Of a stretch of DNA of 64,000 bases, positions 9,945 through 16,159 are shown in pieces. The position numbers were made by a program, and so were the translations under genes. The notes under the pieces are model-generated. The model was not told where the DNA came from and did not search any database. It saw only the letters and a program-made list of their open reading frames with translations. This stretch comes from Heptranchias perlo (taxonomy: Eukaryota), in assembly GCF_035084215.1 (NCBI RefSeq), contig NC_090357.1, forward strand, positions 868,001-932,000, given 5' to 3'. How positions within the stretch are numbered: the first letter of the stretch is position 1; every line of letters begins with the position of its first letter.

Positions 9945-10010
9945 GTTGATCATTAGTCAACAGAATTTGCCTCATCTTAATCTGAGCGGCTTTATCAGGA
10001 GGTATATATA
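9945..10010 (+). promoter_or_regulatory. Apolipoprotein gene promoter: HNF1-like site, GATA site, TATA box
   Basis: GTTGATCATTAGT 9945-9957, TTATCA 9992-9997, TATATATA 10003-10010, about 25-30 nt before a short exon ending CAG|gtaaga. Confidence 0.65.
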
Positions 10011-10030
10011 GGGGCAACAAGCTGCAGAAC

Positions 10031-10057
10031 AGATCACAGAAAGCTGCAGACTTCCAG
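10031..10057 (+). other. Apolipoprotein non-coding exon 1 (start approximate)
   Basis: Strong donor CAG|GTAAGA at 10058 downstream of TATA; fits the 4-exon apolipoprotein architecture. Confidence 0.6.
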
Positions 10058-10178
10058 GTAAGAGTTGCATTATTACTACCTTAATCCTTAGGATGTGGAG
10101 ATGCCGGTGATGGACTGGGGTTGACAATTGTAAACAATTTTACAACACCAAGTTATAGTCCAGCAATTTTATTTTAAA

Positions 10179-10217
10179 TTCACAAGCTTTCGGAGGCTTC
10201 CTCCTTCGTCAGGTGAA
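10179..10217 (-). ncRNA. Minimal type I hammerhead ribozyme motif
   Basis: TTCAC-CTGACGA-A-GGAGG-aag-CCTCC-GAAA-GC-TT-GTGAA on the minus strand. Confidence 0.7.
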
Positions 10218-10236
10218 CGATGAATTTTTCACATCG

Positions 10237-10275
10237 TTCACCTGAGGAAGGAGGTAGCCTCCGAAAGCTTGTGAA
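10237..10275 (+). ncRNA. Minimal type I hammerhead ribozyme motif
   Basis: TTCAC-CTGAGGA-A-GGAGG-tag-CCTCC-GAAA-GC-TT-GTGAA. Confidence 0.7.
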
Positions 10276-11305
10276 TTTAAAATAAAATTGCTGGACTATA
10301 ACTTGGTGTTGTAAAATTGTTTACAATTAATCCTTAGGCATTATGGATCGACAGAGACTGGAACTGTTTTCCATACAGAGGGAAGGAGACTGCTATTGGG
10401 GGTGACTCAAACATTTTAATTAGATGTTTCGCTAAGGAAAAAAAATGGGAAGCACAAGGATTATCAGGGATTTCTTTTACTAACTGGGAATTCAAGTACA
10501 TTTGGGAATGTACATTTAAAAGGAACAGATGATTGAGAAAGAGCAGAGAAAGCAGAAAAAAACTCAAGGGAAAAGGTGCTTAAAAATTGTGACTTGCTGA
10601 TTCCGATTTTTAAGCAGTTTTGGAAACATGAGTTAAAAGGAAGAGAAATAAACGAGAAGGAGGGAAAAGAGAAAGAGAAAGAACGAAATATGAAACAGAC
10701 ATCAACATTTTTCAGGTGTGTTCCTGGTCTTGGGTCAGAGCTCTATCTGTGACTGACTGCACAGGATCCTGGTCAGTAGCGGATGAACTGGTTTTAAAGG
10801 CACCCAAACTTCCTTTTCCAAGTGTTATTTTCCATTATGTGTCAGCCGTCACTCAGTGGGCAGCACTCTCGCCTCTGAGTCAGAGGGATGTGGGTTCAAG
10901 TCCCACTCCAGAGATGAACTGAAGTGTCTTTGCCATGATGCAGTGAGGCCAGCAATCTCAGCATCGACACAGCTCCAACCTGGGAACCCTGGTTTGTATG
11001 AATCAGTGTCGTGCCAAAAGGTACAATGAGCCACCGTAGGAGATCCAGGCAAAACGCAATTCCACCAGAACCTTAACTATTGCAAACAGGACAAAGACTG
11101 TCCCTGTAATGTCATTTCATATTTCAGTCCAGTTCTGTACGATTTTACCTTTCTGTGTTGAAAATTATTTAATTATCAACAGAATGAGTCTCTTTGTAGA
11201 GTTTTGTAAGGATGTTTGCATTGGAGCAGGGAAATATGGATCATAGAATCATAGAATGTACAGCACAGGAGGAAGGCAGCTGGGCCATGGATCTGTCAGT
11301 GCGAG

Positions 11306-11492
11306 TGGAGTAGATCTGGTCTTTGTGCGATAGTGTGAAACGAGTGATAGAAAGGCAGCAGCTCGTTTTACATCTCTCCCCACTTTTACTCTACTGACTT
11401 CAATGGGAATAAAAATCCGGAGTGAAGTACAACAGGCTGTCAATTCACTATCATCCGATTTACACTATCGCACAAAGTCAAAATCTACTCCA
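11306..11492. mobile_element. MITE-like palindromic element
   Basis: TIRs tggagtagat...ctttgtgcgatagtgt / acactatcgcacaaag...atctactcca. Confidence 0.7.
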
Positions 11493-13169: not shown

Positions 13170-13227
13170 ATGAAGATTCAAGTGGTCGCTCTGACTGTTC
13201 TGATTGCCTTCATCGCAGTGCTGACTG
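13170..13227 (+). CDS. Small apolipoprotein (ApoA-II/ApoC-III-like) exon 2: signal peptide MKIQVVALTVLIAFIAVLT
   Basis: Acceptor ttcttctaatttaag before 13140, ATG 13170, hydrophobic signal peptide, phase-1 donor G|gtatgt. Confidence 0.85.
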
Positions 13228-13835
13228 GTATGTAAAAAATACTGCATCGCATTATTTTCTTGCGGAGTTAATTTTGTTCCGAAGGAAAGTGCTGGCAACA
13301 CCAGGGAATGAAATATTCTCCACTTTTTACATCCAGTGTCAGCCCTGAGCATTACCAGGTCACACACGGTTCAGTTTAGTTGTAAACTTCGACACTGTCC
13401 CATCAAACACTCTCAGGGCAGGTACAGGGTTGGATACAGAGTAAAGTTGAAGTTAGATGAGACTCCTATCACACACCCTCCGGTCAGTATTAACACCACG
13501 GGGCCGATCTGGACCTTGCCCAGTGGGAACGGTTAGATTGCTCTGCTCTCGCCCGCCCACATTTTATCTTCACCGACTTTGAAGTCGGCTGAGCCGCCTG
13601 TTCGAGGCAGGGGCCTGATTTCAATCTGAAAGCCGCAGCCCAGTAACAGCAATCAGGAGCCGGACAGATTGCACCAGCCTCAGCCCCTGAGCCTGACCCT
13701 GTCCCCTGTTAAAATCATTGAATCAGGGTCTGATCCTTCTATTGACGCACTCAGTTTACAAAGTCGCGTTTTGGTGGAAATCCTTTCCCGGACACTCGCT
13801 TCTAAACTTGTGTCCTTTCTGTCGCTATTTTTCAG

Positions 13836-13977
13836 CCTCCGAGGCAGTCCCAGTGGAGGAAACCAGTGTCGTGACCCAGGGCTTCCGCACTGCTCAGGAA
13901 TATGTAGCGGATCTCGCAACTCAGGGCAAAGCTCTCATGGATCGGATACAAATTCCTGATCTGATGCAAAAGACCGG
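13836..13977 (+). CDS. Small apolipoprotein exon 3: (A)SEAVPVEETSVVTQGFRTAQEYVADLATQGKALMDRIQIPDLMQKT
   Basis: tttttcag acceptor, GG|gtgagt donor, phase 1 to 2; amphipathic-helix pattern; resembles ApoA-II SLVSQYFQTVTDY / GKDLMEKVKSPEL. Confidence 0.88.
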
Positions 13978-14143
13978 GTGAGTAACCACCACATTCGAGT
14001 GGATGTTTTTCGAGTGTAATTATTAATAAAAGTTGGGGTGGAAACTGCATGTGAAGCTCGAGCATTGGGGAACGGAAATCTTCATTTGTACATAAATTAT
14101 TTTTTAGAAAATTCTATGCTGCCCTAGCGATAGCTAATAATGG

Positions 14144-15607
14144 GTCAGATACAGAGTAAAGCTCCCTCTACACTGTCCCATCAAACACTCCCAGGGCAGG
14201 TACAGGGTTAGATACAGAGTAAAGCTCCCTCTACACTGTCCCATCAAACACTCCCAGGGCAGGTACAGCACGGGTTAGATACAGAGTAAAGCTCCCTCTA
14301 CACTGTCCCATCAAACACTCCCAGGGCAGGTACAGGGTTAGATACAGAGTAAAGCTCCCTCTACACTGTCCCATCAAACACTCCCAGGGCAGGTACAGCA
14401 CGGGTTAGATACAGAGTAAAGCTCCCTCTACACTGTCCCATCAAACACTCCCAGGGCAGGTACAGCACGGGTTAGATATAGAGTAAAGCTCCCTCTACAC
14501 TGTCCCATCAAACACTCCCAGGGCAGGTACAGCACGGGTTAGATACAGAGTAAAGCTCCCTCTACACTGTCCCATCAAACACTCCCAGGGCAGGTACAGG
14601 GTTAGATACAGAGTAAAGCTCCCTCTACACTGTCCCATCAAACACTCCCAGGGCAGGTACAGCACGGGTTAGATACAGAGTAAAGCTCCCTCTACACTGT
14701 CCCATCAAACACTCCCAGGGCAGGTACAGGGTTAGATACAGAGTAAAGCTCCCTCTACACTGTCCCATCAAACAATCCCAGGGCAGGCACAGGGTTAGAT
14801 ACAGAGCAAAGCTCCCTCTACACTGTCCCATCAAACACTCCCAGGGCAGGTACAGGGTTAGATACAGAGTAAAGCTCCCTCTACACTGTCCCATCAAACA
14901 ATCCCAGGGCAAGTACAGGGTTAGATACAGAGTAAAGCTCCCTCCACACTGTCCCATCAAACACTCCCAGGGCAGGTACAGCACGGGTTAGATACAGAGT
15001 AAAGCTCCCTCTACACTGTCCCATCAAACAATCCCAGGGCAGGCACAGGGTTAGATACAGAGCAAAGCTCCCTCTACACTGTCCCATCAAACACTCCCAG
15101 GGCAGGTACAGGGTTAGATACAGAGTAAAGCTCCCTCTACACTGTCCCATCAAACAATCCCAGGGCAAGTACAGGGTTAGATACAGAGTAAAGCTCCCTC
15201 CACACTGTCCCATCAAACACTCCCAGGGCAGGTACAGCACGGGTTAGATACAGAGTAAAGCTCCCTCTACACTGTCCCATCAAACAATCCCAGGGCAGGC
15301 ACAGGGTTAGATACAGAGCAAAGCTCCCTCTACACTGTCCCATCAAACACTCCCAGGGCAGGTACAGGGTTAGATACAGAGTAAAGCTCCCTCTACACTG
15401 TCCCATCAAACACTCCCAGGGCAAGTACAGGGTTAGATACAGAGTAAAGCTCCCTCTACACTGTCCCATCAAACACTCCCAGGGCAAGTACAGGGTTAGA
15501 TACAGAGTAAAGCTCCCTCTACACTGTCCCATCAAACACTCCCAGGGCAGGTACAGCACGGGTTAGATACAGAGTAAAGCTCCCTCTACACTGTCCCATC
15601 AAACACT
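14144..15607 (+). repeat. 63/67-bp minisatellite array in apolipoprotein intron 3
   Basis: Unit gggttagatacagagtaaagctccctctacactgtcccatcaaacactcccagggcaggtaca, with a 4-bp longer variant; about 23 copies. Confidence 0.95.
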
Positions 15608-15635
15608 GTACTAACAACTGCCTCTTGTTTCTCAG

Positions 15636-15720
15636 GGAATTAATTGGAAATGTGCCTGAGTACTTGCAGCAGGTGAGGCAACGTGTGACTGCTGCCTGGA
15701 CCGAAATTACTTCGCCATAA
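15636..15720 (+). CDS. Small apolipoprotein exon 4: (G)ELIGNVPEYLQQVRQRVTAAWTEITSP*
   Basis: Branch-like ctaac then cttgtttctcag acceptor, phase 2 matches exon 3, stop at 15718-15720, AATAAA signals at about 15719, 15736 and 15799. Confidence 0.85.
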
Positions 15721-16159
15721 TAAATTGGGCTTTGCAATAAAAGAACTGTGATTTTTGATTAATTGTGTTCTTTGTGAGATTTGTGTCACACCAAAGAAAA
15801 ATAAATTAAACTTAAATTTCCATGGTTTTTGGGATTTCAAAGCAGCAGTCATCATGTACAGGGGTCTCAGCTGTCAATTCCGTAGATCGCCATAGTTCCC
15901 TACTTTTTGAGGATAGTTCTTACCTCCTTGGAAAGAGTGGCCAATATCCAATATGGGGCTCGAATGGGCAGGTCAGCAAGTGCTTTTTTTGCCTACCTGT
16001 GTGCTATTTATTGCCGGTCTCCTATTTCTTGGTCTTGGTTCGTAATTGAAATGTAAATGGACGGGCCCATAAGCTCTGAACATGTTCACCAAAAGCAAAC
16101 ACAGAGCTAAATCAGTCCCAATGGATTGGAATGGTTGATTCACCTCACTGGGGAAAAAG

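What the first reader, a model, noticed from the sequence alone, without database searches (positions are those of the whole stretch)
9945..15810. Complete 94-aa small apolipoprotein gene with mixed ApoA-II / ApoC-III features
Seen: four exons with canonical sites give MKIQVVALTVLIAFIAVLTASEAVPVEETSVVTQGFRTAQEYVADLATQGKALMDRIQIPDLMQKTGELIGNVPEYLQQVRQRVTAAWTEITSP. Known: a non-coding exon 1 and phase-1/phase-2 introns are the exchangeable apolipoprotein architecture. Exon 3 resembles ApoA-II (SLVSQYFQTVTDY, GKDLMEKVKSPEL), while the 'ASEA' processing region and C-terminal Trp resemble ApoC-III. Inference: linkage to HMBS (human 11q23, which also holds APOA1/C3/A4/A5) favours an ApoC-III-related locus, a gene I recall mainly from tetrapods; the mixed features could reflect an ancestral state. 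Orthology is unresolved.
Basis: partly seen in the sequence, partly recalled or inferred. Interest (0 to 1): 0.7.

Follow-up and report, generated by a model that had tools for sequence, protein, structure and literature searches.

The report
Shark counterpart of apolipoprotein C-III
A sevengill shark has an intact, spliced gene for a small amphipathic protein sitting head-to-head with APOA4, where humans keep APOC3, so this triglyceride-raising drug target, published as a land-animal invention, is likely as old as jawed vertebrates, and the shark protein would likely coat blood fat particles and slow their breakdown.

Summary
The gene is real. Three coding exons (phases 1 and 2) give 94 aa, and both coding junctions appear in assembled contigs of public runs from one sample. 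The non-coding exon 1 is plausible but unverified. The protein is the C-terminal part of a Heptranchias perlo RefSeq 'uncharacterized' model that likely has a spurious 125-aa N-terminal extension.

Orthology points to APOC3. The gene lies head-to-head with an APOA4 array that follows ZPR1, the human APOC3 slot; HMBS is a rearranged neighbour. Its reciprocal homologue in horn shark is labelled 'apolipoprotein C-III-like' in RefSeq and hits Pfam Apo-CIII (E 4.6e-6, below cut-off). APOC1- and APOC2-like genes sit separately beside an APOE-like gene on another contig. The ApoA-II look is weak (Pfam E 0.021) and absent from the two other shark homologues, so 'ancestral mosaic' is not supported.

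Against: this protein alone does not hit Apo-CIII, the APOA1 flank is missing, and no tree with tetrapods could be built. It contradicts a 2019 survey dating ApoC-III to Sauria. The scan earlier noted the neighbouring APOA4 array, not this gene.

The parts
9945..9960 (+). HNF1-like promoter element (inferred; consensus recalled)
   Evidence: pattern hit; not tested for function
10003..10010 (+). TATA box (inferred)
10030..10057 (+). putative non-coding exon 1; start estimated from the TATA box; donor CAG|GTAAGA
   Evidence: sequence only; no joint to exon 2 among the 15 joints shown
13140..13227 (+). exon 2: 5' UTR and ATG at 13170, 19 codons of hydrophobic signal peptide, phase-1 intron follows
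13836..13977 (+). exon 3: end of signal peptide and the 33-codon amphipathic block, phase-2 intron follows
14140..15610 (.). tandem repeat of roughly 62-67 bp filling most of intron 3 (not part of the protein)
   Evidence: read directly
15636..15751 (+). exon 4: C-terminal amphipathic helix ending near Trp89, stop 15718-15720, AATAAA at 15719 and 15736; contigs reach 15746-15751

Best explanation
The window holds an intact, spliced 94-codon small apolipoprotein gene lying head-to-head with APOA4; it is likely the shark orthologue of APOC3, and its product is predicted to be secreted as a 71-residue acidic peptide that would fold into two amphipathic helices on lipoprotein surfaces and would likely slow triglyceride lipolysis or clearance. 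Shown: gene model, splicing of the coding exons, amphipathic pattern, neighbours, reciprocal shark homologues. Inferred: signal cleavage after residue 23 (mature 71 aa, 7.9 kDa, pI 4.6, no Cys), orthology (about 0.8), lipid binding (about 0.9, from family knowledge), and lipoprotein-lipase inhibition by crowding ApoC-II off the particle as in humans (about 0.5, because several C-terminal aromatic residues are missing).
For: Synteny: ZPR1 (-) at C36:778-790 kb, six APOA4-type genes at 802-864 kb (best PDB hit ApoA-IV E 1.3e-63 against ApoA-I 9.5e-18), then this gene (+), 16,803 bp ATG to ATG from the nearest APOA4 (-). Han et al. place APOC3 between APOA1 and APOA4 (PMC7431520, passages); strand orientations in human are recalled. 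Two large apolipoprotein genes (-) at 8.28-8.31 Mb precede a SID-1 family gene (+) at 8.67-8.71 Mb, like the other half of the human block (recalled). Horn shark homologue P0002 (39% identity, E 2.1e-11) has this exon 3 as its only genome match and prefers it over 10 other apolipoprotein exon 3s (score 108 against at most 43). P0002 is named ApoC-III-like, hits Pfam Apo-CIII at E 4.6e-6, and its best PDB hit is human ApoC-III (E 0.018). Atlas first hit is an ApoC-III cluster for both proteins (0.92; 0.95). The exon 4 helix keeps human ApoC-III's Tyr53, Val57 and Trp65 and basic residues at 58 and 60 without gaps (read by eye). APOC1-like and APOC2-like genes lie elsewhere, on C45.
Against: The 94-aa protein gives no Pfam Apo-CIII hit; its only hit is ApoA-II (E 0.021, 15.7 bits, cut-off 27). 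The genome-wide Apo-CIII profile search did not retrieve it, and phmmer against PDB found no apolipoprotein. P0002 stays below the Apo-CIII cut-off (26.6 against 34.1 bits). The three-shark profile scores the ApoC-I precursor (23.6 bits, signal peptide included) slightly above mature ApoC-III (22.6; mature ApoC-I 19.6). Atlas margins are thin (ApoC-I 0.90, ApoA-II 0.88; ApoC-II 0.94 for P0002). No APOA1 follows the gene, and the two genes at 8.3 Mb hit ApoA-IV best. Human Trp42, Phe47, Trp54, Phe61 and Phe64 have no aromatic counterpart here. The genomic position of the two other shark homologues was not seen. No tree with bony vertebrates was built.
Confidence: 0.8

Rival explanations
1. An unclassified paralogue: a small apolipoprotein that arose beside APOA4 independently of tetrapod APOC3, or an old sister gene keeping ancestral ApoA-II/C-III features. 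It would bind lipoproteins without a specific ApoC-III role.
For: No family cut-off is reached by any of the three shark proteins. Scores to ApoC-I, ApoC-III and ApoA-IV lie within about 5 bits. The closest in-genome exon 3 is APOA4's (score 39). Lamprey LAL1 is described as similar to several families (PMC6854765).
Against: It needs two independent arrivals of a small gene in the same slot and orientation. Exon 4 of P0002 aligns without gaps to ApoC-III 15-67. The ApoA-II-like stretch is limited to 1 of 3 shark sequences.
Confidence: 0.1
2. It is the shark APOA2 orthologue, an HDL structural protein, lying in or moved to the APOA4 cluster.
For: Only Pfam hit of this protein is ApoA-II over residues 5-87 (E 0.021). 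No other APOA2 was identified: the genome search was blank and none of the C45 small genes was assigned to it. One run shows very high contig depth, as an abundant HDL protein might.
Against: Neither homologue hits ApoA-II. There is no dibasic propeptide after the signal peptide (feature recalled). The TOMM40-type gene, whose paralogue neighbours human APOA2 (recalled), is on C45 beside three unassigned small apolipoprotein genes that are better positional candidates.
Confidence: 0.07
3. It is a displaced duplicate of APOC1.
For: The three-shark profile's top PDB hit is ApoC-I precursor; both have a 58-nt signal exon; Atlas ranks ApoC-I second.
Against: A separate APOC1-like gene sits downstream of the APOE-like gene on C45 (Pfam ApoC-I E 3.9e-4) and scores only 31 against this exon 3. 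This protein is acidic and has a longer last exon.
Confidence: 0.03

Closest known systems
Tetrapod apolipoprotein C-III (APOC3; Pfam PF05778; PDB 2JQ3)
   Same: Position and divergent orientation next to APOA4 after ZPR1; exon plan; size; acidic, Cys-free mature peptide with two amphipathic segments; Tyr53/Val57/basic 58 and 60/Trp65 spacing in the last helix.
   Different: Below the Pfam cut-off; four residues shorter at the exon 3/4 hinge than the horn shark and human proteins; only 4 aromatic residues in the mature part; shorter C-terminal tail; APOA1 does not follow the gene.
Heterodontus francisci 'apolipoprotein C-III-like' XP_067910277.1 (P0002) and Chiloscyllium punctatum GCC39053.1 (P0005, partial)
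   Same: Reciprocal homologues, 37-39% identical; same signal peptide and exon 3 layout.
   Different: P0002 keeps the Tyr-Trp pair and hits Apo-CIII; it is an automatic database label, and its genomic position was not seen here.
Apolipoprotein A-II (PF04711)
   Same: Weak whole-length profile hit; a similar stretch near the end of exon 3.
   Different: Below cut-off, not shared by the homologues, different genomic neighbourhood, no dibasic propeptide (recalled).
Lamprey LAL1
   Same: Small exchangeable apolipoprotein described as similar to ApoC-III among others (PMC6854765, PMC7431520).
   Different: Reported as linked to tom40 (PMC7431520), that is the APOE-side cluster; no sequence comparison was made here.

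Membership tests
Exchangeable apolipoproteins (APOA/C/E) | Signal-peptide exon with phase-1 intron, 33-codon-block exon with phase-2 intron, last coding exon | tested here: met
   block scores 10.2 leave-one-out against six other shark apolipoprotein exon 3s, above every unassigned candidate among 1526
Exchangeable apolipoproteins (APOA/C/E) | Amphipathic helical periodicity in the mature chain | tested here: met
   26 of 5000 shuffles reach the observed moment
Exchangeable apolipoproteins (APOA/C/E) | Non-coding first exon | tested here: inconclusive
   TATA box and consensus donor present; no joint seen
APOC3 | Adjacent and divergent to APOA4, downstream of ZPR1 | tested here: met
   human strand orientation recalled
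APOC3 | Followed closely by APOA1 | tested here: inconclusive
   HMBS follows instead; ApoA-I-sized genes lie 7.4 Mb away before a SID-1 gene but hit ApoA-IV best; consistent with a rearrangement break right after this gene
APOC3 | Reaches the Pfam PF05778 curated cut-off (a library threshold, not a biological definition) | tested here: not met
   no hit for this protein; homologue 26.6 of 34.1 bits
APOC3 | ApoC-III is the closest human small apolipoprotein | tested here: inconclusive
   yes for P0002 and by Atlas for this protein; near tie with ApoC-I for the profile; ApoA-II by Pfam. Whether an ApoA-II chain is in the PDB library was not checked
APOC3 | C-terminal tryptophans important for lipid binding and lipase inhibition (PMC12909363) | tested here: inconclusive
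   Trp65 equivalent kept; Trp42 and Trp54 equivalents absent here, Trp54 present in horn shark
APOC3 | Groups with tetrapod ApoC-III in a tree | not testable with these tools
   no bony-vertebrate small apolipoprotein was returned as a stored sequence
APOC3 | Inhibits lipoprotein lipase or remnant clearance; O-glycosylated near the C-terminus | not testable with these tools
   needs bench work
APOA2 | Reaches Pfam PF04711 cut-off | tested here: not met
   15.7 of 27 bits; 0 of 2 homologues hit
APOA2 | Linked to a TOMM40-family gene (recalled) | tested here: not met
   TOMM40-type exon at C45:11,577,033, a different contig
APOC2 | C-terminal Y-x-x-I-x-x-D-Q lipase-activating motif (recalled) | tested here: not met
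   absent from this protein; present in a C45 gene that hits PF05355
APOC1 | Downstream of APOE, PF04691 hit | tested here: not met
   that slot is filled by a C45 gene

The most novel reading that the evidence does not exclude
APOC3 is an ancestral jawed-vertebrate gene, not an amniote invention, and sharks carry the whole regulatory set (APOE, APOC1, APOC2, APOC3 and three further small apolipoprotein genes). The ApoC-II activator and ApoC-III inhibitor balance on lipoprotein lipase would then predate the shark-bony fish split, and its reported absence in fishes would be loss or non-detection.
Probability: 0.6. Interest if true: 0.62.

Novelty: new member of a known kind. Interest (0 to 1): 0.5.

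Why it matters
ApoC-III is a major triglyceride regulator and drug target. [quoted passage not shown] A shark APOC3 in the conserved slot, with APOE-, APOC1- and APOC2-like genes on another contig, would reverse that order of origin. It also supplies a natural variant poor in C-terminal aromatics for testing what ApoC-III needs to inhibit lipase, and corrects a RefSeq model that buries the signal peptide. Interest is limited because RefSeq already labels the horn shark protein ApoC-III-like.

Tried and rejected
Word-indexed homologue searches found only the gene's own record, nothing or the two proteins already in the query. Exon 3 alone had no Pfam hit. Genome-wide profile searches for Apo-CIII (one unrelated hit at E 0.51, not examined), ApoA-II and Apo-CII were uninformative: one search missed the APOC2-like gene later found by hand, so these blanks show nothing. 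No RNA holder is on record as RNA. No contig covered 9900-10040 or 15755-15900; this neither supports nor refutes exon 1 or the 15810 end. Atlas structure searches gave no named family over the bar; Atlas had no usable hit for the C45 11,662 kb exon. No fold or complex was predicted, since human ApoC-III is disordered without lipid. A rival APOC3 near the 8.3 Mb genes was sought in C36:8.20-8.35 Mb: the extra exon 3 at 8,280,549 belongs to a large apolipoprotein and no small gene was recognised, but the heuristic scans have misses. HMBS as the synteny anchor was rejected. Hits P0003 (stork, 1581 aa, 13 stretches) and P0004 (sea slug, matching only the N-terminal extension) were left out of the alignment, 2 of the 5 hits. 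PMC5408602 is not held.
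Full report
Observation. The coding exons are at 13170-13227, 13836-13977 and 15636-15720, with GT/AG ends and intron phases 1 and 2, giving the 94 aa reported. Exon 3 has one match in the genome, itself. The window is G000:C36:868001-932000. An N stretch at 12626-12847 lies in intron 1 and says nothing. Residues 1-23 are hydrophobic; residues 24-94 have a mean hydrophobic moment of 0.391 against 0.270 +/- 0.041 in shuffles (26 of 5000 reach it), peaking at about 27-47 and 57-85. 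The inferred mature peptide is 71 aa, 7.9 kDa, pI 4.6, without Cys. The cleavage site is inferred; no signal-peptide predictor was run.

Transcripts. Contigs of four runs, one sample code and one study, RNA by the tool's guess, skip 608 bases between exons 2 and 3 at GT..AG in 4 of 4 runs. Exon 3 letters lead into exon 4 in 3 of 4; single contigs of 346 and 364 bases cover all three exons and reach 15746 and 15751, just past AATAAA at 15736. Summed contig depth on exon 3 is about 275,000 in one run and 22-35 in the others, while a repeat bin is of similar depth in all four. The tool warns that contig depth is a poor measure of expression, so this is only a hint of very high expression in one library of unknown tissue. 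Exon 1 rests on sequence alone.

Annotation. RefSeq XP_067826805.1 (Heptranchias perlo, 'uncharacterized', 219 aa) ends in these 94 residues. Its extra 125 residues map to 8726-8896, 10847 to about 11020, and the 5' UTR of exon 2. The extension would bury the signal peptide and is likely a prediction error.

Homologues. HMMER over 1.84 billion representatives gave 5 hits at E up to 0.001: self, horn shark P0002 (98 aa, 39%, E 2.1e-11), bamboo shark P0005 (partial, E 1.7e-4) and two unrelated-looking proteins that I dropped. P0002's only match in this genome is exon 3 of the finding. Against 11 shark apolipoprotein exon 3s, P0002 scores 108 with the finding and at most 43 with others; P0005 scores 57 and at most 33. 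RefSeq names P0002 'apolipoprotein C-III-like'. It hits Pfam Apo-CIII at E 4.6e-6 (26.6 bits, cut-off 34.1) and ApoC-I at 0.071, and aligns without gaps to human ApoC-III 15-67 (E 0.018). The finding alone hits only ApoA-II, weakly (E 0.021), and no apolipoprotein in PDB. A profile of the three scores ApoC-I precursor 23.6 bits, mature ApoC-III 22.6, mature ApoC-I 19.6 and ApoA-IV 18.3. Atlas ranks an ApoC-III cluster first for both proteins (0.92 and 0.95) with other small apolipoproteins within 0.01-0.08. Sequence therefore leans to ApoC-III but does not decide alone.

Synteny. On C36, ZPR1 (-) is at 778-790 kb, followed by six PF01442 genes at 802-864 kb, five on the minus strand; the nearest is clearly APOA4. 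The finding (+) starts 16,803 bp from that gene's ATG, head to head. In human the order is ZPR1, APOA5, APOA4, APOC3, APOA1, SIK3, PAFAH1B2, SIDT2 with APOC3 alone on the other strand (order and strands recalled; APOC3 between APOA1 and APOA4 in PMC7431520, and PMC6854765). In the shark HMBS (+) follows at 921-928 kb, with VPS11, its human neighbour (recalled), at 1.82 Mb on the minus strand. Two further large apolipoprotein genes (-) at 8.28 and 8.30 Mb lie about 0.37 Mb before the only SID-1 family locus listed. They have ApoA-I-like lengths but hit ApoA-IV best, so I cannot call either APOA1. The simplest reading is that the human block is split right after this gene. Scans of C36:770-962 kb and 8.20-8.35 Mb recognised no other small apolipoprotein gene; these heuristics missed at least one signal exon seen.

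The other cluster. On C45 a TOMM40-type exon (11,577 kb, E 0.008) precedes an ApoA-IV-like gene, an APOE-like gene with a basic receptor-binding-type stretch (label from recalled motif and position), and five small genes with 55-58 nt signal exons and phase 1/2 exon 3s. One hits ApoC-I (E 3.9e-4) and one ApoC-II (E 8.1e-4), both below cut-off; three are unassigned. So the APOC1 and APOC2 slots are filled elsewhere, and APOA2 candidates exist there too, though none was shown to be APOA2.

Mechanism. By family knowledge the peptide is secreted and exchanges onto lipoprotein surfaces. Human ApoC-III is disordered when free and forms helices 11-38 and 44-64 on lipid, and binding is needed for lipase inhibition (bioRxiv 10.1101/2020.07.02.183178, passages); it displaces ApoC-II, and C-terminal tryptophans matter (PMC12909363, passages). 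The shark protein has two amphipathic segments at matching places and keeps Tyr53, Val57, basic 58 and 60, and Trp65, but not Trp42, Phe47, Trp54, Phe61 or Phe64 (by eye). With an APOC2-like gene in the genome, a brake on lipolysis is the most likely role, at about even odds; plain surface binding is much safer.

Literature. [quoted passage not shown] PMC7431520 (passages) also places APOC3 late. PMC4348566 (passages) notes fish clusters holding both apoE and apoA-IV. PMC11399561 (passages) added nothing. Searches listed no paper reporting a shark APOC3; 'apoc3' with 'chondrichth' returned only PMC6854765, and searches were too loose to count for much. Subscription journals are not covered. 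An earlier scan note describes the adjacent APOA4 array; I confirmed five last exons at 99.3-99.7% identity.

Verdict. A real gene and likely APOC3 orthologue (0.8): a new member of a known family, half-known through an automatic label in another shark, but at odds with the published history of the family. I file it firmly as an exchangeable apolipoprotein and as APOC3 only as 'likely', since the Pfam cut-off is not met and no tree could be built.

Noticed in passing
G000:C45:11,660,289-11,754,350 (L044-L059): Five small apolipoprotein-type genes downstream of an APOE-like gene: one ApoC-I-like, one ApoC-II-like with the activator motif, and three unassigned (ATG at 11,660,289, 11,672,895, 11,698,075). 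Published survey says sharks have none of these.
   Followed up: partly
G000:C45:11,625,011-11,634,627 (L041-L042): APOE-like gene with a basic receptor-binding-type stretch, next to an ApoA-IV-like gene and a TOMM40-type exon; ApoE was reported absent from cartilaginous fish.
   Followed up: partly
G000:C36:801,804-864,367 (L018-L024): Six APOA4-type genes; five last exons 99.3-99.7% identical, one copy inverted, one shorter and diverged. A lone signal-like exon at 824,101 (-) had no partner exon found.
   Followed up: partly
G000:C36:8,278,604-8,305,609 (L026-L029): Two diverged large apolipoprotein genes of ApoA-I-like length in the position expected for APOA1, both with ApoA-IV as best PDB hit; no unambiguous APOA1 was identified in this genome.
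   Followed up: partly
window 53455-59843 (+): HMBS exons (3 Pfam hits); VPS11 lies 0.9 Mb away on the opposite strand, so a rearrangement break falls between this gene and HMBS.
   Followed up: partly
window 8726-8896 and 10847-11020: Extra exons of RefSeq model XP_067826805.1 that add 125 residues ahead of the signal peptide; likely a prediction error.
   Followed up: partly
window about 10090-10330: Inverted repeat element in intron 1, with related copies abundant in all four runs.
   Followed up: no
window 12849-13167: A perfect 319-base contig in run X1 runs from intron 1 into exon 2 at low depth (57): unspliced precursor or a minor alternative start.
   Followed up: no
window 44218-44397 (+): Exon-like open frame of 60 codons with good splice signals and no Pfam hit, between this gene and the HMBS hits.
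   Followed up: partly
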